The notes under the pieces are model-generated. The model did no database searches. It was given only the letters and a program-made list of their open reading frames with translations, and was not told the origin of the DNA. From a virus, in the IMG/VR virus record IMGVR_UViG_3300013901_000001: 64,000 bases of DNA. The stretch is one strand, 5' to 3'. The position numbers were made by a program, and so were the translations under genes. Shown one piece after another: positions 14,885-46,526 of the stretch; position 1 is the first letter of the stretch; each line of letters begins with the position of its first letter.

Positions 14885-15115
14885 ATGAAAGGGAAACGGC
14901 TTATGAAGTTTTCAAGACTTACAAAGCCGGAACTTGAAAAAATACTTCAAAATGCCAATTTTACGAAAGACGAAGAAGAAATATTTAAGGACCTGTCTAG
15001 GGGAATTTCTGAAAAAGAAATATCCCTTAGACATTCTATATCCGTAAGTACGGTTGAAAGAAGAACACGCCGTATCAAGGAAAAAATAAAAAGATTAAAC
15101 AGGAGTGAGAAATGA
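14885..15115 (+). CDS. small sigma-70 region-4-like HTH regulator
   Basis: EEEIFKDLSRGISEKEISLRHSISVSTVERRTRRIKEKI. Overlaps the integrase start. Confidence 0.5.
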   Translation: MKGKRLMKFSRLTKPELEKILQNANFTKDEEEIFKDLSRGISEKEISLRHSISVSTVERRTRRIKEKIKRLNRSEK

Positions 15116-16359
15116 GTCTTTCTGATAACGAATTATTGAAGTATGCCGTTGAAAATGGTATGATTGACACGGCACTTTTACGAAAAGAATTAGAAATGCG
15201 CAGAAGAGAGGAGATATTATCAAAACACCCATATCGTATATGGCAAGGAAATGACGGAAGGTGGAGAACATATTTACTTCCGGAAGACGGTAAAAGGAAA
15301 ATGGTAAACCGTCAGACCGAAAAGGATTTAAAGGATGTTGTTGTTAGCTTTTATGAAGAAAACGAGAAGCATTCTTTTAAAAACCGATACGATGTATGGG
15401 TACAAAGACAAGAAAATTGTGGACGAGCAGAAAACACAATATACAAATACGAAACGGACTATGATCGTTTTTTCAAAGGAGATCCTTTTGAAAGAATGAA
15501 AGTAGAAAATATTACAGACGAAGATATTTCTTTAATGATTATTGACCTTTTAAAAAGAAAAGATATTCCATACAAGGCATTAAAGGGAATGTTTGGGTAC
15601 ATGAACGGAGTCTTTGAAAAGTGTATCATTGACAAAATTATCAAAGAAAATCCTTGTAAATACATAGATTTGCCGATATATAAGAAATACTGCAAGGAAT
15701 CAGGAGATAACAGAGTCGAAAGCAGAACATTATCTAGGGACGAAAGTAAAAGCCTTTTGGAGAAACTGGACGATTCTTACCAAAAGAAACCGAATTACAT
15801 TGTTCAATACGCTTTGGAATTTTCAATGTATACCGGAATGAGAGTGGGGGAGTTATCAGGGTTAAGTTGGGATTGCATTGATTTTGAAAGGAAGACATTG
15901 ACTATTTGCAAATCAGAAAAATTTAATCGGAAAAGCAAGACGTATTATATTTCTTCAACTAAAAATGACAAAACAAGGGTAATTCCTCTTACAAAACAAA
16001 TGGAAGAAGTGCTTTTAAAAGTCCGAAGTATAGAAGAGGAAAATGGGTTTTTAAGCGAATTTGTTTTTTCTGATTCAAACGGGAGAGTTCATTGCAGAAG
16101 AATTTCTGATTGTGCAAGAAACAGAACAATGTCGAAAGAATTTTCCAAGCCAAAAAGTATACACGCAATAAGGCGAACTGTAAACTCGGAATTACGTTGC
16201 AAAGGTGTTCCGGCAGTCGTAGCTGCATCACTTATTGGTAATACGGAAAGAGTCAACGAAAGCAATTACAGCTATGACATATCCGGAATGGAATATAAGT
16301 CTTCCGTATTCGCTGAAATAAACAAAGATATTCGTGATTACAGAAATAATCAAAAGTAA
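15112..16359 (+). CDS. int: tyrosine site-specific integrase
   Basis: Catalytic-domain landmarks (MYTGMRVGELSGLSWDCID, KSIHAIRRTVNSEL, TERVNESNYSYD). Followed directly by arm-type repeats and a tRNA 3'-end core. Confidence 0.85.
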   Translation: MSLSDNELLKYAVENGMIDTALLRKELEMRRREEILSKHPYRIWQGNDGRWRTYLLPEDGKRKMVNRQTEKDLKDVVVSFYEENEKHSFKNRYDVWVQRQENCGRAENTIYKYETDYDRFFKGDPFERMKVENITDEDISLMIIDLLKRKDIPYKALKGMFGYMNGVFEKCIIDKIIKENPCKYIDLPIYKKYCKESGDNRVESRTLSRDESKSLLEKLDDSYQKKPNYIVQYALEFSMYTGMRVGELSGLSWDCIDFERKTLTICKSEKFNRKSKTYYISSTKNDKTRVIPLTKQMEEVLLKVRSIEEENGFLSEFVFSDSNGRVHCRRISDCARNRTMSKEFSKPKSIHAIRRTVNSELRCKGVPAVVAASLIGNTERVNESNYSYDISGMEYKSSVFAEINKDIRDYRNNQK

Positions 16360-24565: not shown

Positions 24566-24663
24566 GTAAAAATCGTAGTAATCGCGTACTAATGATTTTT
24601 AAGATTTTCCGTGAAAACCGATTTTCAAAAATCTCGGGAAAAACGCCAAAAAAAGATTCCACC

Positions 24664-24705
24664 CCAAAAAAGTCCGGGAGAAAAAAATTTCTTTCTTCCT
24701 CCCGG
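24664..24705 (-). terminator. intrinsic terminator candidate for minus-strand transcription
   Basis: On the minus strand, CCGGGAG-18 nt-CUCCCGG followed by ACUUUUUUGG. Confidence 0.55.
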
Positions 24706-24747
24706 CTCCCTTTGTCAACAACAACGGCAATGCGATTATATTGTACC

Positions 24748-24803
24748 CATACCGACTACACACCGGCGCAACTCCGGCATCATACCGGCGTCAATACGGC
24801 GGT
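24748..24803 (+). repeat. about five degenerate 11-bp tandem repeats with phased CCGG
   Basis: CCG/CCGG/CGG cores at 24752, 24763, 24774, 24785 and 24796, exactly 11 nt apart. Confidence 0.6.
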
Positions 24804-24985
24804 GGTTATGTACGCTACTACATAGGGCGTATTTAAACGCGTAGAAATCCGTACACCGCACTAGAGGGGCACAATCAGACCATACAGACATAAATATATT
24901 ATGGTATGGTACAATGCCATAATAAAGCCTATCGGTGGCGTTGTCAAGGTGCTATCTGTTCTCAAGTGTGACAATCTGACACTTT

Positions 24986-25028
24986 TAACCACAATATATA
25001 GCAATCCCGGATCGCAAGATATTGTATG
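24986..25028 (+). repeat. 43-bp direct repeat, copy 2 (imperfect palindrome)
   Basis: taaccacaatatAtagcaatcccggatcgcaagatAttgtatg. Internal inverted arms acaatat...atattgt. Confidence 0.8.
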
Positions 25029-25040
25029 ATTTTGAATAAA

Positions 25041-25084
25041 ACCACCGCCCGGAATCGAACCGGGCAAGCATCCAATACGGTGGT
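25041..25084 (-). ncRNA. tRNA-like acceptor/T-arm minihelix 1 (also terminator-like)
   Basis: Minus strand reads ACCACCG-UAUUGGAUGCUUG-CCCGG-UUCGAUU-CCGGG-CGGUGGU followed by UUUUAUU. The loop is a canonical T-loop. No D or anticodon arm. Confidence 0.55.
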
Positions 25085-25197
25085 TAACGCTCAAGTTCAA
25101 AGATCGCCCAACGCAAAGCTGCGACCGCTTCGGCGTCCTTTTCTTTCTCCGCTCTTTCTAGCAGGGTGTACAATGTATCTAGCTTTTTTCTTTCCAT
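25084..25197 (-). CDS. mini-ORF 4 (37 aa)
   Basis: aaaggagtatgaaacc RBS. MERKKLDTLYTLLERAEKEKDAEAVAALRWAIFELER. The stop codon overlaps the first nt of minihelix 1. Confidence 0.45.
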   Translation of the reverse strand: MERKKLDTLYTLLERAEKEKDAEAVAALRWAIFELER

Positions 25198-25229
25198 GGT
25201 TTCATACTCCTTTCTTTTATTTTGGATAT

Positions 25230-25276
25230 GGCAAAGCCGGGGAATCGAACCCCGGATAATACCGTCTATTCTTGCC
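25230..25276 (-). ncRNA. tRNA-like acceptor/T-arm minihelix 2
   Basis: Minus strand reads GGCAAG-AAUAGACGGUAUUAU-CCGGGG-UUCGAUU-CCCCGG-CUUUGCC. Same T-loop as minihelix 1 with different, compensated stems. Confidence 0.5.
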
Positions 25277-25318
25277 TAGGCCAAGATCATCCTAGCTGTA
25301 CTATACACACATTGACGG

Positions 25319-25549
25319 TTAAAACCGTGATGCTTGAAATCTCCAACGCTTGCGATTGTCTGTGCCGTGTTCGGATATTTCAAAAAAAAAAACCGTGAAA
25401 TACTTGTCGAGCAGATCGTCCGGACACTCTAAACAGTTTATTGCGCCCTGGATCTCGTTCTTGTTGCTGTTCTGATAGATCCCGTCAATCTTCACGCCTT
25501 TTTCTTCTTGTAATTGCTCTAATTTCTTTAGCATTTCGTATTTTGTCAT
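25319..25549 (-). CDS. mini-ORF 3 (76 aa) containing a T11 run
   Basis: Start MTKYEMLKKLEQ... at 25549 after gaaaggaag. The upstream part of listed ORF 25319..25621 overlaps the ribozyme-like spacer. The A11 run at 25382-25392 on the plus strand encodes VFFF. Confidence 0.55.
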   Translation of the reverse strand: MTKYEMLKKLEQLQEEKGVKIDGIYQNSNKNEIQGAINCLECPDDLLDKYFTVFFFEISEHGTDNRKRWRFQASRF

Positions 25550-25572
25550 AATATTTTCTTCCTTTCTGCCCT

Positions 25573-25630
25573 GTCTCATCGGTACAGGTGGGGCGGTTCC
25601 TGTAGACGGTGGATTTTCCACCGTTTCGAC
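25573..25630 (-). ncRNA. hammerhead type II-like motif B (core variant CCGAUGA)
   Basis: Minus strand reads GUC-GAA-ACGGUGG-AAAAU-CCACCGU-C-UACAGG-AACCGCCCCA-CCUGUA-CCGAUGA-GAC. Confidence 0.4.
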
Positions 25631-25800
25631 TAAATTAATTTTCCGTAACCGAGAATTTTCTCGGCTTCTGGAATCGCAAAAAACATCGCTCTATATTTTG
25701 CAACGAAAGAGCATTTATACACATTTCCGCTTTCGCATATGGCTAAAAAGTCGCCGTCTTTGTTTTCTTTTATAATGTCCTTAATACTGTAAAGATCCAT
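25630..25800 (-). CDS. mini-ORF 2 (56 aa)
   Basis: gaaaggagaacttagatc RBS. MDLYSIKDIIKENKDGDFLAICESGNVYKCSFVAKYRAMFFAIPEAEKILGYGKLI. Too short for the ORF track. Confidence 0.5.
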   Translation of the reverse strand: MDLYSIKDIIKENKDGDFLAICESGNVYKCSFVAKYRAMFFAIPEAEKILGYGKLI

Positions 25801-25826
25801 GATCTAAGTTCTCCTTTCGCTTGCTT

Positions 25827-25881
25827 GTCTCATCAGTGGCAAGGTTGCAACCCTACGCCAGACCGCCGAAGCGGTTTCGAC
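25827..25881 (-). ncRNA. hammerhead type II-like self-cleaving ribozyme candidate A
   Basis: Minus strand reads GUC-GAA-ACCGC-UUCG-GCGGU-C-UGGCGUAGGGUUGCAACCUUGCCA-CUGAUGA-GAC. All invariant core positions are present, including the GUC cleavage triplet. Stem II is only GUC/GAC. Confidence 0.6.
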
Positions 25882-25882
25882 T

Positions 25883-26080
25883 TTATGCACATAAAATATA
25901 TACATAGTATTCATCGTTTTCTTTGTATTCTGCTTCAACTTTTCTGTCGCCGTCTTCTGTTACAACATCACCGTTAAGGGTGTTATAATATCCAATCGAA
26001 AGACTTTTTAAAATCTTTCTGATATTATCGTTTATGCTTCCGGTTTTCCATTCAAACTTTCCTATATACATTTTTTCCAT
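25883..26080 (-). CDS. mini-ORF 1 (65 aa)
   Basis: ORF track. aaaaggagataaaacaat RBS. Confidence 0.55.
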   Translation of the reverse strand: MEKMYIGKFEWKTGSINDNIRKILKSLSIGYYNTLNGDVVTEDGDRKVEAEYKENDEYYVYILCA

Positions 26081-26134
26081 ATTGTTTTATCTCCTTTTTG
26101 GTTTGTTCTTTGTTATGGTCTTATTATATTGTAG

Positions 26135-26208
26135 TTATGTACATAACACAATAGGCAAGTTGCACAAAGTTGTGTACATAATATTGGTTGTTTTTGATAT
26201 GTACATAA
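26135..26208. promoter_or_regulatory. three TGTACA-centred palindromic operator candidates in a divergent control region
   Basis: ttatgtacataa (26135-26146, perfect palindrome), tgtgtacataat (26171-26182), atatgtacataa (26197-26208). Located between the minus-strand mini-ORF operon and a plus-strand RHH gene. Confidence 0.55.
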
Positions 26209-26256
26209 CATTTTAATATTGCTACAATGATACCTGATAAAAAGGAGGTATTTCTA

Positions 26257-26442
26257 ATGGCAATAACAGAAGAAAGACGAAAATATTTATACGATTACCA
26301 CAAGAACAACTTGAAGCGCGTGCCGCTTGATCTGCAATTATCAGACTATGAATTACTGAAAGCAGAAGCACAAAATGCCGGGGAATCGGTAAACGGTTTT
26401 ATAAAACAGGCGATAGCCGAAAAATTGGAACGAATGAATTAG
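26257..26442 (+). CDS. ribbon-helix-helix protein
   Basis: ATG at 26257 after aaaaggagg. KRVPLDLQLSDYELLKAEAQNAGESVNGFIKQAIAEKLE. Confidence 0.55.
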   Translation: MAITEERRKYLYDYHKNNLKRVPLDLQLSDYELLKAEAQNAGESVNGFIKQAIAEKLERMN

Positions 26443-30053: not shown

Positions 30054-30126
30054 AGGGATATCGCCAAGCGGTAAAGGCACAGGATTTTGATTCCTGTATT
30101 CGTGGGTTCGAATCCCACTATCCCCG
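30054..30126 (+). tRNA. tRNA-Gln (anticodon UUG), A1-C72 unpaired, no encoded CCA
   Basis: Hand-folded cloverleaf: AGGGATA-TC-GCC-AAGCGGTAAA-GGC-A-CAGGA-TTTTGAT-TCCTG-TATTC-GTGGG-TTCGAAT-CCCAC-TATCCCC-G. Anticodon at 30087-30089. Confidence 0.75.
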
Positions 30127-30590
30127 TTTGGGTTACTTGTTTCATAACCCATGACATTTTTCTCCTTTATACGTAAACCCACTAGCGGAAGGCTGTTAAG
30201 GATCGTCACAAGATCCGGTGGGATTTCTATGGATAGTGCATTCCATAACCGTAAAGACGGACACCAAAGAAATCCTTTCTAAGTGTGAAATAGCTAGTGC
30301 CGGTTCAGATGCACGGAGCCGGTGCGCATGGATAGTATGCAAACGGGCAAGCAGGAGGTCGAAAGACCAGATCAGCATTGCAAGGTTCGAGTCCTTGCCT
30401 ATCCATTCTCCGTAAGGCCATACGGAGCCTAGGAGCCAGTCATAGATCTGTTGCAAGCGAAAATGACGGTGAAAAACTTTATTCGTGGAGATAAGGAGAA
30501 AACGTGAGACAACATATCCGTTTGGTAGCGAATAGCATTCTTGAAGTTTCAAATGGGTTTATAGGGAATGCCATGGAAAGGGAGTGATTG
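30127..30590 (+). ncRNA. about 460-nt ORF-poor, stem-rich region (unclassified structured RNA candidate)
   Basis: Many local and long-range complementarities, including GGGTTA/TAACCC, CCCAC/GTGGG, GGATC-GTCACAA-GATCC, GGATTTCT/AGAAATCC, ATGGA/TCCAT, GGTC-GAAA-GACC and CTCCGTA-AGGCCA-TACGGAG. The only ORFs are short, overlapping and antisense. Confidence 0.45.
30330..30405 (+). ncRNA. 76-nt tRNA-like module lacking an anticodon loop
   Basis: GGATAGT-A-TGC-AAACGGGCAA-GCA-GGA-GGTC-GAAA-GACC-AGATCAGCATTG-CAAGG-TTCGAGT-CCTTG-CCTATCC-A. It has a 6-bp acceptor, a D-like arm with GGG and a canonical T arm. A GNRA hairpin stands where the anticodon arm should be. Confidence 0.45.
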
Positions 30591-31704: not shown

Positions 31705-31878
31705 AAAAGAAAATGGAACGGATTATTGACTTTTTGGATTCTTTTTTCTATTATCCAAAGATGAAGAGATATTTTATCAATAAGGGGTTGTTTAGCTACA
31801 ATCCTTGGCAAGATGAAAAATTTGCCAGAATAAAATATGCGTGGTGGCATTGTCATCACGGAAGATTGAGAGATTAAA
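31702..31878 (+). CDS. hypothetical 58-aa protein
   Basis: ATGA overlap with the upstream stop. MKKKMERIIDFLDSFFYYPKMKRYFINKGLFSYNPWQDEKFARIKYAWWHCHHGRLRD. Below the ORF-track length cutoff. Confidence 0.4.
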
Positions 31879-31960
31879 TCTAACGGCACAACAGATATGG
31901 TTGTTGTGCAACAAGTCAAAATGGAGACTTCTTTTATTTTGCAAAGGAGGTCTCTTTTTT

Positions 31961-33736
31961 ATGTCTGTTGAACTCCAACAAACAGTTCAAGGGTATGAAA
32001 ATTACATAAAACAAAACGGAATTGATGCACAAGCAATAGACGCATACGTTGAAGCGTGCAATTTTGCCATAAGAAAAGAAAAAGATATTTCATACGGATT
32101 GAAATTGACTAATCATGCTAAAAAGTTGATAGAAAATTATTGTGTTTCAAAAACCGGAGTTTCAATTTGGAAACTTGAAAAATATGCACAAGAAAATAAA
32201 TCTGAATACGGATTGATAGATCAATATTATGAACTGCTAAAACTGGAAAGCTTCTGGAAACTTGAAAGCTATATATTTTTTATGGAGCGTAAAAGACCTT
32301 GCGGAAAAAGGTTTTATTACCCAAGAAAGAAAACCTTAAAAAAGGTTTTGGACGATCTGGAAGATCTTGAAAACAGAGTTATCTCTTTTTATGGTTTATC
32401 ATTGCCGTCAAGAACCGGAAAATCAACTTTATGTATCTTTTTTCTTTCGTGGATAGCATTAAAAAGACCTAACAGCCATTCCGCTATGGGAGGTCATTCC
32501 GGAATACTTGCAAAAGGATTCTATAAAGAATTAATGAATCTTTTTACGACAAACGAATATTGTTTTGCAGAATTATATTACTTCTGGCATCCGGAATATG
32601 AAAACACTATTATACCAACAGATAAAAGCGCAGATGAATATACAATTACTTTAGGTGATCCGGATAGATTTGCAACGATTACTTGCAGAGGTATTGACGG
32701 AACATGGACGGGAGCTGTTGATGTATCAGGGGACGGATATTTGTACGTAGACGATTTAGTAAGAGACAGAGAGCATTCATTAAGTCCGTCACGTATGGAA
32801 AATACATATCAAGAGTACTTGAACAAAATGGTTGACCGAAAAAATGACGGTTCCCGTGAATTAATGGTTGGTACTTTGTGGAATGTGCTTGATCCTCTTG
32901 AAAGATTAAGAAAACAGTATGACGGAAACCCAAAATACAGATTCAGAAAGATTCCGGCGCTTGATGATAATGATGAGAGCAATTTTGACTATGAAATAAA
33001 TGGATTTTCAACAGAATACTACCGCGATATGAGAGAGAAACTTGATAAAGCAGAATGGGAAGCAAAATTTATGCAACGTCCTTTTGTACGAGAAGGACTG
33101 CTGTTTCCTACTGATGAATTAAGATATTTTAACGGAATTTTACCAGAGGGAGATTTTAGAAGAATTGGTGTTACTGATATTGCGTGGGGAGGTGGAGATA
33201 GCCTGTCGATGCCTATCGGAGCGGAATATGAAAACGGAGACGTATATATTTATGACTGGGTATTTAATTCCGGGCCAAAAGAAGTAACAATTCCTCTTGT
33301 CGTCGGAAGAATCATGGGAAATGAGATACGACAAACAAGATTTGAGGGAAACGTTGGTGGAGATCTTTATTGCCAGTACGTAGATGAAAAACTGCAAGAA
33401 CAAAATTACAAATGCTCTTGTACAAGCAAAAAAGCGTCAAATAAAATCGAAAAATTATCCAAAATCATCGCATATTCTGGAGATATAAAGCGAAAGTTTA
33501 TATTTCTTGAAAGCAAAAAGCCTACACAAGAAGAACTTGAACACGATGCAGAAATGGGAATTGTACGATACAGACGTACAGATGAGTACCAAAAAGCAAT
33601 GGACGAATTGACAATGTTTGTAAGTATTGGAGGAAATGAACATGACGATGCGGCGGACGGACTTACACAGCTTGAAATGTTCATTGAAAATCCGGCATCG
33701 GTAAAAGTAGCAAAAATTATTCAGAGTCCAATTTAA
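31961..33736 (+). CDS. terL: terminase large subunit
   Basis: ATG at 31961 after aaaggagg. Walker A LPSRTGKSTL. Acidic nuclease-half motifs (DIAWGGGDSLS, GGNEHDDAADGL). Portal gene follows. Confidence 0.8.
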   Translation: MSVELQQTVQGYENYIKQNGIDAQAIDAYVEACNFAIRKEKDISYGLKLTNHAKKLIENYCVSKTGVSIWKLEKYAQENKSEYGLIDQYYELLKLESFWKLESYIFFMERKRPCGKRFYYPRKKTLKKVLDDLEDLENRVISFYGLSLPSRTGKSTLCIFFLSWIALKRPNSHSAMGGHSGILAKGFYKELMNLFTTNEYCFAELYYFWHPEYENTIIPTDKSADEYTITLGDPDRFATITCRGIDGTWTGAVDVSGDGYLYVDDLVRDREHSLSPSRMENTYQEYLNKMVDRKNDGSRELMVGTLWNVLDPLERLRKQYDGNPKYRFRKIPALDDNDESNFDYEINGFSTEYYRDMREKLDKAEWEAKFMQRPFVREGLLFPTDELRYFNGILPEGDFRRIGVTDIAWGGGDSLSMPIGAEYENGDVYIYDWVFNSGPKEVTIPLVVGRIMGNEIRQTRFEGNVGGDLYCQYVDEKLQEQNYKCSCTSKKASNKIEKLSKIIAYSGDIKRKFIFLESKKPTQEELEHDAEMGIVRYRRTDEYQKAMDELTMFVSIGGNEHDDAADGLTQLEMFIENPASVKVAKIIQSPI

Positions 33737-42192: not shown

Positions 42193-42221
42193 CTATGCCG
42201 TCTATTTTGCGAGGTGAGATT

Positions 42222-45200
42222 ATGGCAGAAATTGATGATTTAACCGTGAAAGTCAATGCCGATGCGAAACAAGCGGATAGTGCACTAGAAAAACTGGTAT
42301 CTCAATTAGAAACAGTCAACAGCGCACTTGGCAAGATCATGTCTGGAAATGCTTTTTCAAATATGGAAGAGAGTGCAAAAGCGGCATCTGCATCTATGCA
42401 AGGTATATCTACCTCTACAAAGCGTGTATCAGACGAAATAGGCTCTCAAATGAAAAAGGCAAGCAATTCTATTAAGGGAGTTGAAACGCCCGTAAAAGAG
42501 ACGTTTAAGAGCATTGAGGACGTTATTGCCAAGCTTGGACAGAAGTCTATTGATATAAAGCCACAAATTGACACTGCCAATCTTGCCGGAGAACAGAAGA
42601 AATACACTGAACAGTTAAAAAATATGCAGAATGGAATCAACCGTGTTTTAAATTCTGCACATCCGGAAAAGAAAATCGGAACTTTAGATTCTCTTGTTGT
42701 GAAGCTAAATGAAGCAAAGAATGCTTTGAAAGAAATTGAGAGTCTTCAAGGTTCTGTATCGACTTCTACATCGGAAATTCCGGAACCACATTTTTACTGG
42801 GAAGATACAAGAGATCCTAAAGATGTTATAGAGGATTATAAAAACAGCCTTGAAAGTTGGAAAAGCTATCTTGAAAACTTTAATCAAGGAAGCTACAATG
42901 CTCCGACAACCGGATTTGTGGAATCCGTAGAAAGAAGCATAGAAGAATTAAAAGCAAAATTTCCAGATGCAAAATCGCTTATTGCCGAATATGAAAAATT
43001 ATTCGAGGATCTTTCTGCCGTTGCAGTTCCTAAAGTAGAAACAAGCAATGTGGAAATTGAAAGTCCGTTAAAGAATATAGAAAATGAAGTTGATAATTTT
43101 AAAAAAACCATTGATTCCATTAAGCCACTTGAATTTACTGGAAACTTCTATGAAATGGAAAAGTGGGTAGACGATCTAAACACCAAACTTATATCTTTAC
43201 TTGATAAAAGAGAAAAGTTGACGGATTTAGGTGCAAATATGGACACTCAAAGAATCCAGTCCATGACGTACGACATTGAACAGCTTTCAAAGACCATTGA
43301 GAAATACGAAGTCAAGGTTGAAGAAGCACGGAAAGCCGGACAACTCGACATTAAGATTCCGAGTATTGATGAATCGCTGTCTAAAACTGGACTTTCTGCA
43401 CAGAAATCTGCATCTAAAGTAGCGGAAATCTTTAAAAATAATAAAATCATTGTTCAAACTGACGGATTTAAAAAAGTTCAGAGTGAGATACAGAAAGTAA
43501 AGAGGCAGTACGAAGAACTTGTAAAAACCATTCAGTTAAAGTCTCAAACCATAAGTTTTTATGGTGCAAGTAGTGATTTCAAAAAGAAACAGACAGAGTT
43601 GGCCGCTTTGCGTGAAGATTATCAGAGATTAATCAATAAGCAGAAAGAAATGGCTATTCTGCGATTTGATTCTAAAGGATTTACTGACGGTCTTACAAAA
43701 CTGCAAGGATTTGTTTCTAAGACCTCAAACACACTTGGAAGAATTAACAAGAGAATTAATGAGTTTGGAAGAAAGCTATTATCCCTTGTAGCACCAACAC
43801 AGAAAGCTAGAGCGGCACTTAAGGGATTAGATGTTACCAATATCGGACTTGCAAACAGTCTACTCCGCACAACCAAAATGTTAAAGCTGATGATTGTAAG
43901 AATGGCTTTGCGTGGTGTGATTGACGGAGTAAAAACCGGAATGCAGAACCTGGCAATGTATTCGGACGAAACGAATGCAAGCCTTTCTCTGCTAATGAAC
44001 AGCCTTAATCAGCTTAAAAATTCCTTTGCGGCGGCAGTAGCACCTATTTTGAATGCCTTTGCACCGGCATTAGATAAGATTATTCAGTTATGCATTAAAG
44101 CCGTAAATGCCATTAATCAAGTGATTTCCGCATTACTTGGAAATGGTACTTTTATTCGTGCTAAAAAACTGACAGACAGTTATAGGGATTCTATCAGTGG
44201 CGCATCAAGCGCGGCAGAAGAACTTAATAAGCAGTTACAGGGATTTGATAAATTAAATAATCTTACCACTTCAAAAAGCGGCGGTGGAGCCGGTTCTACA
44301 ACAACGAATCCGGAAGATATGTTTGAAACTGTCAACATTGAAGATAAGTGGAAAGATTTGGCAGATAAAATCAAGAATATCTTAAGCAAAATTTTCGATC
44401 CGTTAAAAGAAGCGTGGAAACGTGCCGGAGATTTTGTAATGAAGTCTTGGAAGTTTGCGCTTCAAGAAGTATGGAAACTGGTTAAAAGCATTGCAAAAGA
44501 TTTTCTTGAGGTATGGAATGAAGAAGAGACCATACAGGTTCTTGAAAATATACTTCTGATTATTGGAGATATTGGTTTAACAATCGGATATCTTGCACAA
44601 GGATTTCGTGAAGCGTGGGAAGAAAACGACACCGGACTTCATATTTTGCAGAATATCCGAGACATTATCGGAGTAATCGTTGAGAACATTCTTCATGCGG
44701 CTGACGCAACGGTTGAATGGGCAAAAAACCTTGATTTTTCACCATTACTTACAAAGATCGAAGAATGGACTGCATCATTAGTTACGGTATTCGATAATTT
44801 ATCCGGAATTGTTACTGATTTTTATGAAAAAGTTTTACTTCCACTTGCAAAATGGACGCTAGAAAAAGGTCTTCCTGACTTGCTACAAGTGTTTATTGAT
44901 TTCAACGAAAAAGTTGACTGGGAGAAACTTCGTAATAATTTAAAGACTTTGTGGGAACACGTAGAGCCGTTTGCAGAAACAATCGGAGAAGGGTTGATTA
45001 TTTTTGTAAGGGATATATCAGATGCTCTTGCAAATTTTATAAACAGTCAGGAATTTGAGGATTTTCTGACAAAAATTGAAGAGTGGATGGACAACGTTTC
45101 TGCAGAGGATGTAGCAAATACTTTGAAAGATATAGCCGCCGGAATTCTTGTCTTAAAAGTCGCAACAGCAACGTTTAGTACATTATCACCGGCTATTGAA

Positions 45201-46526
45201 GTTATCAAGTCACTTGTAAACGTTTTAAGTGGAATCAAAATGGCAAAAGCCTTACAGAACCTTGCTAAATTAGGCGGTGGCGGTGCAACTGCATCGGCAT
45301 CTACCGGAGGCGTACTTAGCAGTCTTGGTGGGCTTAAAGGATTGCTTTTTGGTGATCTTGGCACTATTTTCGGTGCCGGAACAGCAACAGAAATTGCAGC
45401 CACAATAGGAGTTGGTCTTACTGGTTCATTAGCGGCGTGGTTTGTTGGAAATTGGACAGGAAAGCAGTTAGGCGCACTTCTTTTCCCGGAAATGAAAGAA
45501 GAATACCTAAACTTCCATTGGCTTGGCGAAGGTGGATTTTTTGATCAGTTATTTGATAAAGAGGATTTTGCATCATTTGATAGCATTAAAGATAAATTCA
45601 AAGAGTTATCCGATGCTTGGGATATGATGAAATCTGATTTTGCAGACAACCCATTAATTGCTTCGTTTACAACATTTATAGATACTACAGTAAACAGTCA
45701 AAATCATTTAGGAAATTTGATTGAAAAAATAAAAGAAGTTCCGGAAGCGTGGGAAACAGCAAAAACGCAGTTTTTGGAAATTGTAGAATCTGTGAAAGCA
45801 AAGTGGGAAGAAATCAAGACAGGGTTTACAGACACCGTAGAAGAATGGAAGCAAAAAGCACTTGACCTAAAAGAGAATATCCAACAAAAAATCACAGATT
45901 TTGTAGACGGAATTAAGGAAAAATGGGAAAACATCAAGGCAGACTTTGATGAACTGAAAGAATCTATCGTACAAAAGTACGAAGATTTCAAAGAAAAAGT
46001 CGCAAACAAGTTAGATGAAATGAAGCAGTCATGGAATGATACGTGGTCTGCAATTGGAGAAGCCGTAGGCGGTACAGTAAAATCTATCATTGATGCAGTT
46101 ACCAGTGCAATTTCGTGGATTCAGAGTTTGATTGGAAACATCAACGCAATTCCGCAAACGGTAAACATCGGCGTGAATATGGGTACGGAAATCGGAAAGA
46201 ACGCCGCAAAAAAAGTCCGAGGTTATGCTTCCGGTGGATTTATCGAACCGGCAACGTACTTCAAAGCCGGAGAAAACGGTGTACCGGAAATCCTTGGAAC
46301 AGTCGGTGGTAAGTCGGCGGTAGCAGGTGGACAGGAAATCACCGGAATTTCCAATGCGATTTACAGTACAGGACAGACCGAAGCACAGCTTTTGTCAGCG
46401 GCGGTACAGTTTTTACAGACTATTGCGCAAAAAGATTTCAGCATCAATTCTTCCGATGCGTTCAACGCAATTCGGGAAGAAGCGCATTCATACGAGAAGC
46501 GGACAGGAGATAAGGCATTCACTTAA
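42222..46526 (+). CDS. tape measure protein
   Basis: About 1430 aa, coiled-coil rich with hydrophobic central segments. ATG at 42222 after gaggtgagatt. Confidence 0.85.
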   Translation: MAEIDDLTVKVNADAKQADSALEKLVSQLETVNSALGKIMSGNAFSNMEESAKAASASMQGISTSTKRVSDEIGSQMKKASNSIKGVETPVKETFKSIEDVIAKLGQKSIDIKPQIDTANLAGEQKKYTEQLKNMQNGINRVLNSAHPEKKIGTLDSLVVKLNEAKNALKEIESLQGSVSTSTSEIPEPHFYWEDTRDPKDVIEDYKNSLESWKSYLENFNQGSYNAPTTGFVESVERSIEELKAKFPDAKSLIAEYEKLFEDLSAVAVPKVETSNVEIESPLKNIENEVDNFKKTIDSIKPLEFTGNFYEMEKWVDDLNTKLISLLDKREKLTDLGANMDTQRIQSMTYDIEQLSKTIEKYEVKVEEARKAGQLDIKIPSIDESLSKTGLSAQKSASKVAEIFKNNKIIVQTDGFKKVQSEIQKVKRQYEELVKTIQLKSQTISFYGASSDFKKKQTELAALREDYQRLINKQKEMAILRFDSKGFTDGLTKLQGFVSKTSNTLGRINKRINEFGRKLLSLVAPTQKARAALKGLDVTNIGLANSLLRTTKMLKLMIVRMALRGVIDGVKTGMQNLAMYSDETNASLSLLMNSLNQLKNSFAAAVAPILNAFAPALDKIIQLCIKAVNAINQVISALLGNGTFIRAKKLTDSYRDSISGASSAAEELNKQLQGFDKLNNLTTSKSGGGAGSTTTNPEDMFETVNIEDKWKDLADKIKNILSKIFDPLKEAWKRAGDFVMKSWKFALQEVWKLVKSIAKDFLEVWNEEETIQVLENILLIIGDIGLTIGYLAQGFREAWEENDTGLHILQNIRDIIGVIVENILHAADATVEWAKNLDFSPLLTKIEEWTASLVTVFDNLSGIVTDFYEKVLLPLAKWTLEKGLPDLLQVFIDFNEKVDWEKLRNNLKTLWEHVEPFAETIGEGLIIFVRDISDALANFINSQEFEDFLTKIEEWMDNVSAEDVANTLKDIAAGILVLKVATATFSTLSPAIEVIKSLVNVLSGIKMAKALQNLAKLGGGGATASASTGGVLSSLGGLKGLLFGDLGTIFGAGTATEIAATIGVGLTGSLAAWFVGNWTGKQLGALLFPEMKEEYLNFHWLGEGGFFDQLFDKEDFASFDSIKDKFKELSDAWDMMKSDFADNPLIASFTTFIDTTVNSQNHLGNLIEKIKEVPEAWETAKTQFLEIVESVKAKWEEIKTGFTDTVEEWKQKALDLKENIQQKITDFVDGIKEKWENIKADFDELKESIVQKYEDFKEKVANKLDEMKQSWNDTWSAIGEAVGGTVKSIIDAVTSAISWIQSLIGNINAIPQTVNIGVNMGTEIGKNAAKKVRGYASGGFIEPATYFKAGENGVPEILGTVGGKSAVAGGQEITGISNAIYSTGQTEAQLLSAAVQFLQTIAQKDFSINSSDAFNAIREEAHSYEKRTGDKAFT

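What the first reader, a model, noticed from the sequence alone, without database searches (positions are those of the whole stretch)
25041..26080. Minus-strand mini-ORF operon punctuated by hammerhead-like motifs and tRNA-like minihelices
**Layout.** On the minus strand, four short ORFs (65, 56, 76 and 37 aa), each with its own GGAG-type RBS, are separated by structured spacers.

**Spacer 1 (25881 to 25827).** It reads GUC GAA ACCGC-UUCG-GCGGU C UGGC-GU-AGG-GUUGCAA-CCU-U-GCCA CUGAUGA GAC.
- It contains every invariant hammerhead core element: CUGAUGA, GAA, the A15.1-U16.1 pair and a GUC cleavage triplet.
- The order matches a type II hammerhead, with stems I and III closed by loops and stem II open.
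- Stem II is weak, only GUC/GAC plus a possible UGC/GCA extension.

**Spacer 2 (25630 to 25573).** It has the same architecture with entirely different, compensated stems (III ACGGUGG/CCACCGU, I UACAGG/CCUGUA). Its core reads CCGAUGA, a change at normally invariant U4, so it may be inactive.

**Stop-codon placement.** In both spacers the upstream ORF's stop codon (UAA or UAG) lies 0-2 nt from the 5' GUC.

**Spacers 3 and 4.** These are instead 47- and 44-nt minihelices. Each has an acceptor-like stem stacked on a stem capped by the same canonical T-loop UUCGAUU (CCGGGG/CCCCGG and CCCGG/CCGGG), with no D or anticodon arm. Acceptor/T-arm minihelices are known substrates for RNase P and CCA-adding enzyme.

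**Interpretation (inference).** The operon looks built to be cut into monocistronic pieces by two different RNA-processing routes. I do not know of a described system combining ribozyme and tRNA-like punctuation around mini-proteins. Self-cleaving ribozymes are known to occur in phage and prophage DNA, which makes the hammerhead reading plausible.
Basis: partly seen in the sequence, partly recalled or inferred. Interest (0 to 1): 0.85.

Follow-up and report, generated by a model that had tools for sequence, protein, structure and literature searches.

The report
Ribozyme and tRNA-mimic punctuated phage operon
A small gene cluster in a gut-bacterial virus has each tiny gene followed either by a self-cutting hammerhead RNA or by a stripped-down tRNA look-alike, and related viruses swap these two elements and ordinary transcription terminators at the same spot, which suggests all three make messenger-RNA ends.

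Summary
On the minus strand (26080 to 25041) four small ORFs are each followed closely by a structured element.

- **Spacers 1 and 2** are type II hammerheads of a phage subclass with a 3-bp stem II and a pseudoknot between loop I and the 3' tail. A model built from 52 unrelated phage hammerheads scores them 49.6 and 49.3 bits. Rfam's model stays below threshold, as it does for their canonical relatives. HH-B's U4C change occurs in 30 of 45 distinct members of its family.
- **Spacers 3 and 4** belong to a recurrent, undescribed family of tRNA mimics without an anticodon arm. They have a 12-bp acceptor/T stack, a UUCGAUU T loop, no encoded CCA and a U74 trailer. The family occurs in at least 120 viral contigs and in Lachnospiraceae MAGs, typically 200-660 nt downstream of hammerheads.
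- **Key result:** after orthologous ORFs, the post-stop slot holds a minihelix, a hammerhead, an intrinsic terminator or nothing.

Best reading: these are interchangeable mRNA 3'-end modules. Hammerheads self-cleave. Minihelices are probably cut by RNase P and RNase Z, like plant mitochondrial t-elements. No cleavage was tested.

Hammerhead arrays are already known; the tRNA-mimic partner appears new.

The parts
26081..26226 (-). Divergent promoter/operator region upstream of ORF1. It holds three copies of TTATGTACA (26208-26200, 26181-26173, 26146-26138) and a TATAAT box. It faces a plus-strand RHH-like gene at 26227-26442.
   Evidence: Sequence read. Weak DUF6290 match for 26227-26442. The consensus scan gave only weak promoter matches. 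The promoter assignment is inferred.
25883..26080 (-). ORF1, 65 aa, GGAG RBS. Its UAA stop (25885-25883) lies 1 nt before HH-A.
   Evidence: An 89% identical ortholog in L126/L123 is followed by an HH-B-type hammerhead instead. No Pfam or PHROG match.
25819..25881 (-). HH-A, a type II hammerhead. Stem II is GUC/GAC, then GAA. Stem III is ACCGC-UUCG-GCGGU and H17 is C25861. Stem I is 25860-25837 and the core CUGAUGA is 25836-25830. The pseudoknot pairs loop I UUGC (25850-25847) with GCAA (25824-21). Predicted cut: 25861|25860.
   Evidence: Rfam Hammerhead_II 26.4 bits, below the gathering score of 37. Model R2 built from 52 other phage hammerheads: 49.6 bits, E 2e-13. Pattern 2 matches against 0 expected. 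Pseudoknot statistics.
25630..25800 (-). ORF2, 56 aa, GGAG RBS. Its UAG stop (25632-25630) shares its G with the GUC of HH-B.
   Evidence: Only 4 weak homologs among the loci. No family match.
25565..25630 (-). HH-B, a type II hammerhead with a U4C core (CCGAUGA, 25582-25576). Stem III is ACGGUGG/CCACCGU and H17 is C25605. Stem I is UACAGG/CCUGUA. The pseudoknot pairs loop I GCCC (25594-91) with GGGC (25571-68). Predicted cut: 25605|25604.
   Evidence: Model R2: 49.3 bits, E 3e-13. Close relatives L121/L124/L126 carry CUGAUGA. U4C occurs in 30 of 45 distinct family members.
25276..25549 (-). ORF3. It is annotatable as 76 aa (25549-25319) but is frameshifted at the T11 run 25392-25382. The ancestral 90-aa frame ends at UAG 25278-25276, overlapping minihelix 1.
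   Evidence: Three-frame translation compared with the L124 90-aa ortholog. Homologs at 45-94% identity in 23 loci.
25230..25276 (-). Minihelix 1, a member of family F1. Acceptor GGCAAG/CUU(U)GCC has 6 bp with one bulged U. The linker AAUAGACGGUAUUAU contains GG. The T arm is CCGGGG-UUCGAUU-CCCCGG (6 bp). The discriminator is A25229, followed by U. There is no anticodon arm and no CCA.
   Evidence: Model R1: 29.5 bits, E 2e-5; not in the seed. The best Rfam match is only mascRNA at 20.8 bits, below its gathering score of 42.5. ARAGORN calls no tRNA. The family occurs in at least 120 viral contigs.
25084..25197 (-). ORF4, 37 aa, GGAG RBS. The last A of its UAA stop is nucleotide 1 of minihelix 2.
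   Evidence: Homologs at 61-92% identity in 17 loci.
25037..25084 (-). Minihelix 2, family F4. Acceptor ACCACCG/CGGUGGU (7 bp), linker UAUUGGAUGCUUG, T arm CCCGG-UUCGAUU-CCGGG (5 bp), then UUUU. It is terminator-like and occupies the slot where distant ORF4 orthologs have a canonical intrinsic terminator.
   Evidence: Model R1: 47.9 bits; this sequence is in the seed. Folding z-score -2.58. Terminator-like match in the consensus scan. ORF4 ortholog comparison.

Best explanation
This is an accessory-gene operon of a temperate gut phage of Lachnospiraceae. Each small cistron ends, within 0-2 nt of its stop codon, in an RNA module that creates an mRNA end.

**Modules 1 and 2 (hammerheads).** These are type II hammerhead ribozymes of the phage 'GUC...GAC-A + pseudoknot' subclass. 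They should self-cleave after C25861 and C25605.
- The upstream cistron is left with stem III as a 3'-terminal hairpin ending in a 2',3'-cyclic phosphate.
- The downstream cistron is left with a 5'-OH and stem I as a 5'-terminal hairpin.

**Modules 3 and 4 (minihelices).** These are tRNA mimics without an anticodon arm. They have a 12-bp acceptor/T-arm coaxial stack, a canonical T loop, a GG-containing linker in place of the D loop, no encoded CCA and a U at position 74. They present the parts of a tRNA that RNase P, RNase Z and the CCA-adding enzyme recognise.
- Host RNase P is predicted to cut 5' of nucleotide 1.
- RNase Z is predicted to cut 3' of the discriminator.
- This would separate the cistrons in the way tRNAs and t-elements punctuate organellar transcripts.
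- The last minihelix, with its U tract, also takes the place of the operon terminator.

**Shown here:** sequence and structure membership, recurrence, association with hammerheads, and positional interchangeability.

**Inferred:** all cleavage events, the enzymes involved and the effect on mRNA stability.
For: **Hammerheads.**
- HH-A has the complete core and both copies have type II topology.
- A model built from 52 class-1 phage type II hammerheads, with these two families excluded, hits only these two sites in 64 kb: 49.6 and 49.3 bits.
- The loop I/tail pseudoknot covaries across 122 distinct hammerheads: mean Watson-Crick run 4.77 against 2.89 for permuted partners. Both window copies have 4 bp.
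- Clustered prophage hammerheads flanking single genes cleave in vitro and in E. coli (PMC3088659).

**Minihelix structure.**
- Of 149 distinct non-tRNA T arms, chosen without regard to their flanks, 120 have 7/7 acceptor pairing. With shuffled upstream sequence the figure is 6.5%.
- 86 of 97 F1 contexts have exactly a 12-bp stack, as 7+5 or 6+6.
- Acceptor and T stems differ between families while the T loop stays constant. That set was selected for pairing, so this point is weaker.
- Trailers match the phages' real tRNA genes: 158 of 163 tRNAs lack CCA and 135 of 163 have U74. About 95% of F1 tails have U74.

**Association with hammerheads.**
- In loci retrieved by the minihelix pattern alone, 46 of 76 have a hammerhead 200-660 nt upstream on the same strand, and 0 of 73 have one downstream.
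- The hammerhead finder gave 1 false hit in reversed DNA.

**Interchangeability.**
- After ORF3 orthologs the post-stop slot holds an F1 minihelix (13 of the 19 distinct downstream sequences), a hammerhead of one of three families (L217, L120, L068), an intrinsic terminator (L095) or nothing (L018); one further copy (L126) is partly degenerate.
- After ORF4 orthologs it holds minihelix 2 or a canonical terminator.
- Systematically, 9 of 46 ORF clusters carry at least two kinds of element, and 6 carry both a hammerhead and a minihelix.

**Downstream end.** F1 minihelices are followed 4 nt after nucleotide 72 by a covarying 3-7 bp hairpin in 72 of 84 tails, against 19% in shuffles. This fits a protected 5' end after an RNase Z cut.

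**Precedents.** Plant mitochondrial t-elements direct RNase P/Z cuts that form mRNA ends (PMC1920247). In B. subtilis, RNase P and RNase Z process precursors that lack CCA (PMC1874595).
Against: - There is no experimental or transcript-end evidence of any kind.
- Rfam's Hammerhead_II model scores HH-A at 26.4, below its gathering score of 37, and misses HH-B. Minimum-free-energy folding of the hammerhead regions is no better than for shuffles.
- HH-B lacks the normally invariant U4.
- The window's minihelix 1 has a bulged acceptor stem. Its closest relatives (L125, L126) have T-stem mismatches, and ORF3 upstream of it is frameshifted.
- In about a third of F1 copies, and at both window minihelices ancestrally, a canonical RNase P cut would remove the last base of the stop codon and leave a stop-less mRNA.
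- Hammerheads always lie upstream of minihelices and never the reverse. Full functional equivalence would not predict this, though shared synteny may explain it.
- Most loci come from one metagenome project and one phage lineage, so the counts are not independent events.
Confidence: 0.55

Rival explanations
1. The minihelices are not RNase P/Z substrates. They act as leaky intrinsic terminators and/or 3'-end stabilising structures that happen to have tRNA shape, and only the hammerheads cut the transcript.
For: - Minihelix 2 is followed by UUUUAUU and is called terminator-like by the consensus scan.
- Distant ORF4 orthologs have a canonical terminator hairpin, AAGACGG..CCGUCUUUUU, in exactly this slot. 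One ORF3 ortholog also has a terminator.
- Three ORF clusters alternate between a minihelix and a terminator.
- F1 copies are followed by UUU.
- Minihelices always lie at the distal end of the arrays.
Against: - A terminator or stabiliser has no need for a canonical UUCGAUU T loop, a G53-C61 closing pair, a GG linker or an exact 12-bp stack. All are conserved across families with unrelated stems.
- F1 minihelices sit in mid-array, followed 40-49 nt later by a further ORF with an RBS.
- Their U run is only 3-4 nt.
- Minihelix 1 gives no terminator call.
Confidence: 0.2
2. The released ~45-nt mini-tRNAs are themselves the functional product. After RNase P/Z processing and CCA addition they could act as decoys or regulators for proteins that bind the acceptor/T arm. 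Candidates are tRNA-targeting defence nucleases, CCA-adding or modification enzymes, and EF-Tu. Separating the cistrons would then be secondary.
For: - The minihelix sequence is more conserved than the flanking ORFs. F1 copies are identical next to ORF3 homologs that are only 60% identical.
- Features that matter for protein recognition are conserved: the T loop, the 12-bp stack and the discriminator/U74.
- They occur in accessory-gene arrays of ORFans, as is typical of anti-defence loci.
- Precedent: mascRNA is released from MALAT1 by RNase P and RNase Z (PMC4919922).
Against: - A product RNA would not be expected to be replaceable by a hammerhead, a terminator or nothing at the same slot.
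- Acceptor sequences differ freely between families, so there is no conserved identity set.
- Some copies are visibly degenerate.
Confidence: 0.1
3. The elements matter mainly at the DNA level. They would be short conserved joints at which homologous or site-specific recombination shuffles single-gene cassettes between phages, with RNA activity incidental or relict.
For: - Mosaic breakpoints coincide with the elements. The window has ORF1-[HH-A]-ORF2-[HH-B]-ORF3, while L126 has ORF1-[HH-B]-orf59-[HH-A]-ORF3.
- L124 has an extra [orf128 + minihelix] unit between minihelix 1 and ORF4.
- Each ORF carries its own trailing element, which recalls integron cassettes.
Against: - The conserved features are those of RNA function: the hammerhead catalytic core, compensatory stems, a covarying pseudoknot and G-U pairs.
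- The elements always lie on the coding strand.
- Related prophage hammerheads cleave in vitro.
- Recombination at conserved RNA modules can be a by-product of their conservation.
Confidence: 0.07
4. In this particular window the operon is partly decayed. HH-B would be inactive because of U4C, ORF3 is a pseudogene because of the frameshift, and minihelix 1 is impaired by its bulged acceptor stem. Only HH-A and the terminal minihelix/terminator would still work.
For: - U4C at a normally invariant position.
- The T11 frameshift relative to 90-aa orthologs.
- The bulged U in the acceptor stem and the lower model score of 29.5 bits.
- T-stem mismatches in the closest relatives L125 and L126.
Against: - U4C is the majority state of the HH-B family, with all other features intact across copies that have different stem III sequences.
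- A U4C viroid hammerhead is impaired in vitro but still supports infectivity (PMC3088659).
- The T arm of minihelix 1 is a perfect 6 bp and the stack is still 12 bp.
- The T11 run could be an assembly error or could be corrected by transcriptional slippage.
Confidence: 0.15

Closest known systems
Clustered type II/III hammerhead ribozymes in prophages (Perreault et al. 2011, PMC3088659; Rfam RF02276)
   Same: Several hammerheads in tandem flank single small genes of varying identity in phage DNA. The type II topology has a pseudoknot between loop I and the tail 3' of stem II. The proposed role is to process long phage transcripts into gene-length mRNAs. Core variants, U4C among them, are tolerated in nature.
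   Different: The window's two hammerheads belong to sequence families that Rfam's model scores below threshold. One family carries U4C in most members. The same arrays continue with tRNA-like minihelices, which that work does not mention.
Plant mitochondrial t-elements (Forner et al. 2007, PMC1920247)
   Same: These are tRNA-like structures that are not canonical cloverleaves and carry the GGUUCRANYCC T-arm motif. They lie next to protein-coding sequences, and their 5' and 3' boundaries coincide with mRNA ends made by RNase P and RNase Z. Some cuts fall upstream of the stop codon, leaving stop-less mRNAs. This parallels the stop codon overlapping nucleotide 1 here.
   Different: They are organellar, not phage or bacterial. 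They are not arranged in arrays with ribozymes. The window's elements are smaller (44-47 nt, with a 13-15 nt linker instead of D and anticodon arms). Processing is demonstrated for t-elements and only predicted here.
tRNA punctuation of animal mitochondrial polycistronic transcripts; MALAT1/MEN-beta mascRNA (PMC4919922)
   Same: A tRNA or tRNA-like fold embedded in a long transcript recruits RNase P and RNase Z to define the ends of the flanking RNAs. The best, though sub-threshold, Rfam match of minihelix 1 is mascRNA.
   Different: Those systems use complete or nearly complete cloverleaves in eukaryotic cells or organelles. mascRNA membership fails Rfam's threshold (20.8 against 42.5 bits).
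Bacterial and phage non-tRNA RNase P substrates: tmRNA tRNA-like domain, 4.5S RNA, operon mRNAs, phage regulatory RNAs such as P1/P7 C4 (listed in PMC4919922; C4 named from my own knowledge)
   Same: Bacterial RNase P is known to cut tRNA-like folds in non-tRNA transcripts, including phage-encoded RNAs and intercistronic regions.
   Different: None is a repeated acceptor/T-arm minihelix placed after each cistron. ARAGORN finds no tmRNA in the window.
Rho-independent (intrinsic) terminators
   Same: They occupy the same position directly after the stop codon of orthologous ORFs. Minihelix 2 has a GC-rich closing stem followed by a U tract.
   Different: The minihelices carry a branched or stacked T arm with a canonical T loop. 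Most are followed by further cistrons of the same array.

Membership tests
Hammerhead ribozyme, type II (RF02276) | Conserved core: C3 U4 G5 A6 N7 G8 A9, G12 A13 A14, the A15.1-U16.1 pair, and H17 not G | tested here: met
   HH-A has CUGAUGA, GAA, A15.1-U16.1 and C17. HH-B meets every position except U4, which is C (CCGAUGA). HH-B therefore fails this feature strictly.
Hammerhead ribozyme, type II (RF02276) | Three helices around the core with stem II open and stems I and III capped; the base pairs next to the core are intact (10.1-11.1, 1.1-2.1, 15.1-16.1) | tested here: met
   Both copies have G10.1-C11.1, U1.1-A2.1 and A15.1-U16.1. HH-A has stem III of 6 bp and stem I of 5 bp; HH-B has stem III of 8 bp and stem I of 6 bp; stem II is 3 bp in both.
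Hammerhead ribozyme, type II (RF02276) | Pseudoknot between loop I and the tail immediately 3' of stem II, as in the type II consensus of Perreault 2011 | tested here: met
   UUGC/GCAA in HH-A and GCCC/GGGC in HH-B, each 4 bp and starting 1-2 nt after GAC. The class-wide mean is 4.77 bp against 2.89 bp for permuted partners. A run of at least 4 bp occurs in about 21% of permuted pairs, so each single case is modest evidence.
Hammerhead ribozyme, type II (RF02276) | Score at or above Rfam's gathering threshold (37 bits) | tested here: not met
   HH-A scores 26.4 bits (E 0.011 in a 1.7-kb search). HH-B gives no match at E up to 10. Relatives of both families with canonical cores also fail the threshold, whereas a third family in the same arrays scores 47-69 bits.
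Hammerhead ribozyme, type II (RF02276) | Match to a model built from independent phage type II hammerheads | tested here: met
   Model R2 was built from 52 sequences with the HH-A and HH-B families excluded. It scores 49.6 and 49.3 bits (E about 2e-13 and 3e-13), and the next hit in the window scores 7.3 bits. The seeds were collected with the same core pattern, so core agreement is partly by design.
Hammerhead ribozyme, type II (RF02276) | Site-specific self-cleavage that yields 2',3'-cyclic phosphate and 5'-OH ends | not testable with these tools
   This needs in vitro transcription or end mapping.
Transfer RNA (RF00005) | Cloverleaf with D arm, anticodon arm, T arm and acceptor stem | tested here: not met
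   ARAGORN and Rfam call only tRNA-Gln at 30054-30126. The minihelices have a 13-15 nt linker in place of the D, anticodon and variable regions.
tRNA-like processing elements (t-elements, mascRNA type) | Acceptor stem stacked on a T arm with the GGUUCRANYCC motif; a 12-bp helix | tested here: met
   Minihelix 1 is 6+6 bp with one bulged U and minihelix 2 is 7+5 bp, both with GGUUCGAUUCC. In the family, 86 of 97 contexts have a 12-bp stack. Acceptor pairing is 7/7 in 120 of 149 T arms, against 6.5% for shuffled upstream sequence.
tRNA-like processing elements (t-elements, mascRNA type) | A 3' trailer like that of RNase Z substrates: no encoded CCA after the discriminator, and U at position 74 | tested here: met
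   Minihelix 1 has A73-U74 and minihelix 2 has U73-U74. The phages' real tRNAs lack CCA in 158 of 163 cases and have U74 in 135 of 163. That RNase Z acts on CCA-less precursors comes from PMC1874595.
tRNA-like processing elements (t-elements, mascRNA type) | Ends of the flanking RNAs coincide with RNase P and RNase Z cuts at the element boundaries | not testable with these tools
   No transcript data are available. The only support is indirect: interchangeability with hammerheads and terminators.
mascRNA-menRNA (RF01684) | Rfam gathering score of 42.5 bits | tested here: not met
   Minihelix 1 scores 20.8 bits, E 0.35.
Intrinsic terminator | GC-rich hairpin immediately followed by a U tract | tested here: inconclusive
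   Minihelix 2 is called terminator-like by the consensus scan (TTGCCCGG..CCGGGCGG + TGGTTTTATT) and replaces a canonical terminator of distant orthologs. Minihelix 1 is not called.
tmRNA tRNA-like domain | tRNA-like domain together with a tag reading frame and pseudoknots | tested here: not met
   ARAGORN finds no tmRNA. Rfam tmRNA_permuted matches only the 17-nt T arm, at 12.8 bits.

The most novel reading that the evidence does not exclude
Gut Lachnospiraceae phages carry a previously undescribed class of 'phage t-elements'. These are 40-55 nt tRNA mimics without an anticodon arm that recruit host RNase P, RNase Z and possibly the CCA-adding enzyme. They would be functionally interchangeable with hammerhead ribozymes and intrinsic terminators as modules that form 3' ends and insulate single-gene cassettes. 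If so, phage hammerheads gain a concrete biological role as mRNA end-makers that travel with individual accessory genes. It would also show a bacterial virus using tRNA punctuation of mRNAs as organelles do.
Probability: 0.45. Interest if true: 0.8.

Novelty: new variant of a known kind. Interest (0 to 1): 0.62.

Why it matters
**An open question becomes testable.** What the hundreds of bacterial and phage hammerheads are for has been unclear since they were catalogued in 2011. Here, the same slot after orthologous ORFs is filled by a hammerhead, a tRNA-like minihelix or a plain terminator. This points to one shared job, making and protecting mRNA ends of individual accessory genes, and it can be tested directly.

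**A new way for phages to use host enzymes.** If the minihelices are confirmed, a phage would be recruiting the host's tRNA-maturation enzymes to mature mRNAs. Until now that strategy has mainly been documented in mitochondria and for a few eukaryotic long non-coding RNAs.

**Practical consequences.**
- The family would merit its own covariance model, so that it is no longer left unannotated or mis-called. ARAGORN called one copy tRNA-Leu.
- It could supply compact insulator parts for synthetic operons in Firmicutes.
- The U4C-rich hammerhead family is a natural test case for a tuned or slow ribozyme core.

Tried and rejected
- **Rfam at gathering thresholds, window:** only tRNA-Gln was found.
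- **Rfam at E up to 10 on 24600-26300:** Hammerhead_II below threshold. The other matches (Plastid-ycf2, mascRNA, rdlD, RAGATH-36, tmRNA_permuted) only pick up the T arm or a hairpin and were rejected as families.
- **Minimum-free-energy folding against shuffles:** uninformative for the hammerheads, with z-scores of +0.31 and -0.73.
- **blastn against GenBank phages:** no match. The nearest terminase matches are 46-48% identical uncultured human faecal phages.
- **Pfam and PHROGs on the four ORFs and eight cargo ORFs of relatives:** no hits. The heavier protein searches were not run because cargo identity does not bear on the RNA question.
- **Plain MAFFT alignment of the minihelices:** it put the 5' acceptor strands out of register (A1). 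It was replaced by N-padded, equal-length sequences (A2).
- **Covariation counts on A2:** they look strong, but the sequences were chosen for pairing. I rely instead on the test that selects T arms only and on sets defined by orthology.
- **Origin from co-resident phage tRNAs:** rejected. The best identity is 16 of 24 outside one ARAGORN mis-call.
- **int-alpA RNA next to the tRNA arrays of relatives:** unrelated fold.
- **The 'F3' minihelix family near tRNA arrays:** its boundaries are ambiguous, so it was not used as evidence.
- **attP remnant idea:** unlikely. The 5' acceptor strand is present, there are 2-3 different minihelices per array, and they are far from the integrase gene at 15112-16359. 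Identity to a host tRNA 3' end could not be checked.
- **Literature searches for a hammerhead plus tRNA-like combination:** nothing found. The supplement of the RAGATH paper is not held.

Full report
**1. What is in the window**

The window is phage DNA. It carries an integrase (15112-16359), a large terminase subunit (31841-33736), a helicase, and a long ORF (42195-46526, 1443 aa) that by size and position looks like a tape-measure gene; that last assignment was not tested. Almost all genes lie on the plus strand.

The finding lies in one of the few minus-strand units. Read 5' to 3' on the minus strand, the order is:
- an AT-rich divergent control region with three TTATGTACA repeats (26208-26138);
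- ORF1 (26080-25883);
- spacer 1;
- ORF2 (25800-25630);
- spacer 2;
- ORF3 (25549-25319);
- spacer 3;
- ORF4 (25197-25084);
- spacer 4, ending at 25041 and followed by UUUU.

**2. The two hammerheads**

Both spacers read GUC-GAA-[stem III hairpin, A15.1...U16.1]-C17-[stem I hairpin]-C(U/C)GAUGA-GAC.

*Chance.*
- The bare core pattern is not unusual in 64 kb: 3 matches against 2.89 expected.
- The full pattern occurs twice, against zero in 100 shuffles.

*Rfam.*
- Rfam's Hammerhead_II model gives HH-A 26.4 bits, below the gathering score of 37, and misses HH-B. This would count against membership.
- However, relatives of both families with fully canonical cores (for example L101 4737-4794 and 5047-5104) also fail the threshold. 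A third hammerhead family in the same arrays scores 47-69 bits.
- The low score therefore reflects how the Rfam seed was built, not a defect of these copies.

*An independent model.* I built a model from 52 other phage type II hammerheads, leaving out the two families in question. It finds exactly these two sites in the window, at 49.6 and 49.3 bits (E about 2e-13 and 3e-13).

*Stem II and the pseudoknot.*
- The 'weak stem II' is normal. Of 249 distinct hammerheads collected from 233 viral loci, 182 have this 3-bp stem II.
- In that class, the nucleotides just 3' of stem II pair with loop I, which is the type II pseudoknot described by Perreault et al..
- The pairing covaries. The mean Watson-Crick run is 4.77 bp, against 2.89 bp when loops and tails are re-partnered.
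- HH-A has UUGC/GCAA and HH-B has GCCC/GGGC.

*Predicted cuts.* They fall after C25861 and after C25605.

*The U4C change in HH-B.*
- It is not a private lesion. 30 of 45 distinct members of the HH-B family carry it, with varied stem III sequences and otherwise intact cores. None of 185 hammerheads of other families carries it.
- The closest relatives of the window (L121, L124, L126) have U4.
- Perreault et al. note that a U4C viroid hammerhead is impaired in vitro yet still supports infectivity.

*Precedent.* Tandem hammerheads flanking single small prophage genes, and cleaving in vitro, are already published. This half of the finding adds new members to a known kind.

**3. The two minihelices**

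- ARAGORN and Rfam call no tRNA at either site.
- Minihelix 1 (25276-25230) is GGCAAG / 15-nt linker / CCGGGG-UUCGAUU-CCCCGG / CUU(U)GCC.
- Minihelix 2 (25084-41) is ACCACCG / 13-nt linker / CCCGG-UUCGAUU-CCGGG / CGGUGGU.
- Both give a 12-bp acceptor/T stack (6+6 and 7+5), which is the length of the tRNA acceptor/T helix.
- Neither encodes CCA. Both have U after the discriminator.

*Recurrence.*
- A descriptor scan of loci that had been retrieved only through the hammerhead pattern unexpectedly found the same architecture many times.
- A pattern for the commonest family (F1, to which minihelix 1 belongs) retrieved at least 120 viral contigs, mostly about 55-60 kb.
- The same pattern retrieved seven genome contigs: four Lachnospiraceae MAGs (Roseburia, Acetatifactor and two unnamed Lachnospiraceae), Clostridium sp. 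CAG:510, an uncultured Eubacteriales MAG and a Treponema MAG.
- A covariance model of 17 such elements finds only the two minihelices in the window. Minihelix 1, which was not in the seed, scores 29.5 bits with E 2e-5.
- The model finds one to three copies per array in relatives.

*A structure test free of selection bias.* My sets had been selected for pairing, so I made an independent test. I took all 149 distinct non-tRNA T arms without regard to their flanks. In 120 of them, the 7 nt after the T stem pair 7/7 with a 7-mer 5-30 nt upstream. With shuffled upstream sequence the figure is 6.5%.

*Other family features.*
- 86 of 97 F1 contexts keep exactly 12 stacked pairs.
- The trailers look like those of the phages' genuine tRNA genes. 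Of 163 tRNAs, 158 lack CCA and 135 have U74. About 95% of F1 tails have U74.
- The minihelices do not derive from co-resident tRNAs.
- F1 elements are followed, 4 nt after nucleotide 72, by a small covarying hairpin in 72 of 84 tails (19% in shuffles). An RBS follows, and the start codon lies 40-49 nt from nucleotide 72.

**4. Context and the key comparative result**

*Array layout.* Arrays have the form RBS-ORF-stop|element, repeated.

*Association with hammerheads.* In loci retrieved by the minihelix pattern alone:
- 46 of 76 have at least one hammerhead 200-660 nt upstream on the same strand;
- 0 of 73 have one downstream;
- the hammerhead finder gave one hit in reversed DNA.

*ORF3 and the stop-codon rule.*
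- The window's ORF3 is frameshifted at a T11 run. Its 90-aa orthologs end in a UAG whose G is nucleotide 1 of the minihelix.
- Across F1, the stop codon ends at nucleotide 1 in 34 of 97 contexts and within 7 nt upstream in most of the rest.

*What follows orthologous ORFs.*
- After ORF3 orthologs (58-100% identity), 13 of the 19 distinct downstream sequences hold an F1 minihelix.
- Three hold a hammerhead, each of a different family (L217, L120, L068).
- One holds an intrinsic terminator (L095) and one has no element (L018).
- After ORF4 orthologs, the window's clade has minihelix 2 plus a U tract. Eight more distant versions have a canonical terminator hairpin.

*Systematic version.* Among 46 ORF clusters with at least four distinct downstream contexts, 9 carry two or more kinds of element. 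Six carry both hammerheads and minihelices.

*Cassette exchange.*
- The order of HH-A and HH-B is swapped between the window and L126.
- L124 has an extra [ORF + minihelix] unit.
- Cassette exchange therefore happens at these elements.

**5. Mechanism**

Hammerheads, terminators and minihelices share one output: an RNA 3' end just after a stop codon. My best explanation (confidence 0.55) is that all are mRNA end-forming or insulating modules.

*Hammerhead cleavage.*
- It leaves stem III as a 3' hairpin with a cyclic phosphate on the upstream cistron.
- It leaves stem I as a 5' hairpin with a 5'-OH on the downstream one. This follows from hammerhead chemistry; the effect on stability is inferred.

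*Minihelices.*
- They present the acceptor/T-arm part of a tRNA that RNase P, RNase Z and the CCA-adding enzyme recognise. This rests on my own knowledge of minihelix substrates.
- In B. subtilis, RNase Z cuts CCA-less precursors 3' of the discriminator. It is hindered by long 5' leaders, so RNase P acts first. Type B RNase P cuts CCA-less precursors in vivo (PMC1874595).
- The closest precedent is the plant mitochondrial t-element. It is a non-canonical tRNA-like fold with the same T-arm motif, and its boundaries coincide with mRNA ends, sometimes upstream of the stop codon (PMC1920247).

None of the cleavages has been observed for this locus.

**6. Rivals and caveats**

- Minihelix 2 may simply be a terminator.
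- The released mini-tRNAs could themselves be functional decoys.
- The elements could matter mainly as recombination joints.
- The window's own copy shows signs of wear: U4C, a frameshifted ORF3 and a bulged acceptor stem in minihelix 1.
- A canonical RNase P cut would clip the stop codon in about a third of F1 copies.
- The strict order 'hammerheads first, minihelices later' is unexplained and may only reflect synteny.
- Most loci come from one metagenome project and one phage lineage, so the counts overstate the number of independent events.

**7. Novelty**

- Hammerhead arrays in prophages are known, and tRNA-like processing signals are known in organelles and eukaryotic nuclei.
- I found no Rfam family for the minihelices.
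- I found no paper combining the two or describing such phage elements. The supplement describing the RAGATH motifs could not be read.
- I rate the finding a new variant of a known kind. Interest is 0.62, mainly because the interchangeability result gives the long-unexplained phage hammerheads a testable function.

Noticed in passing
window 25382-25392 (minus strand T11; A11 on plus): A homopolymer run inside ORF3 shifts the frame relative to the 90-aa orthologs, which have T6-C-T3 here. It could be an assembly error, a real pseudogenising mutation or a site of transcriptional slippage.
   Followed up: partly
window 24661-24950, minus strand: Directly downstream of minihelix 2 there is a near-consensus promoter, TTGACA-17-TATTAT (24947-24919), and a strong intrinsic terminator (24705-24674). 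Together they bracket about 240 nt with no convincing ORF. The stretch is 77-83% conserved in relatives, and amino-acid identity is no better than nucleotide identity. It is a candidate small non-coding RNA, with only a weak RAGATH-36 match (14.4 bits).
   Followed up: partly
window 26138-26208: There are three copies of TTATGTACA, which contains the palindrome TGTACA, between the minus-strand operon and the divergent plus-strand gene 26227-26442. That gene has a weak DUF6290/RHH-like match. The repeats look like operators of a divergent promoter.
   Followed up: no
window 30127-30440, plus strand: About 310 nt without a convincing ORF follow tRNA-Gln. They contain another tRNA-like fold at 30329-30406: acceptor ATGGATAG/CTATCCAT, T arm GCAAGG-UUCGAGU-CCUUGC, and a GGUC-GAAA-GACC hairpin where the anticodon arm would be. 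No Rfam family matches at E up to 5.
   Followed up: partly
HH-B family across loci (e.g. L002 8519-8577, L009 2673-2731, L118 2965-3019) and window 25576-25582: The U4C core variant (CCGAUGA) is carried by 30 of 45 distinct members of one hammerhead family, by 2 of 19 of the HH-A family and by 0 of 185 others. This is a family-specific, apparently maintained departure from an 'invariant' core position.
   Followed up: partly
related loci, e.g. L101 4498-5443, L013 4243-3222 (minus), L124 2915-3982: Within arrays, hammerheads always precede minihelices. No hammerhead was found within 2 kb downstream of any of 73 minihelices. Whether this is functional polarity or inherited gene order is unexplained.
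   Followed up: partly
F1 minihelix tails, e.g. L040 7795-7830, L124 3318-3345: A 3-7 bp hairpin (CCGG/CCGG, CCCGG/CCGGG, CCUC/GAGG, CUCA/UGAG and others) begins 4 nt after the acceptor 3' end in 72 of 84 distinct tails. It precedes an A/U-rich stretch and a GGAGG RBS. The window's minihelix 1 lacks it.
   Followed up: yes
related loci L129 5483-5550, L137 13574-13639, L156 9756-9821, L163 2322-2389 and 1981-2048: int-alpA RNA (RF02996) lies immediately after tRNA arrays in relatives of this phage. ARAGORN also suppressor ('Stop') tRNAs among the 191 tRNAs of the loci. One F1 minihelix was mis-called tRNA-Leu(taa).
   Followed up: no
window vs L126 (3197-3509) and L124 (3348-3785): Mosaic breakpoints fall at the RNA elements. 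HH-A and HH-B are exchanged around a non-homologous middle ORF in L126. L124 carries an extra [128-aa ORF + minihelix] unit between minihelix 1 and ORF4.
   Followed up: partly
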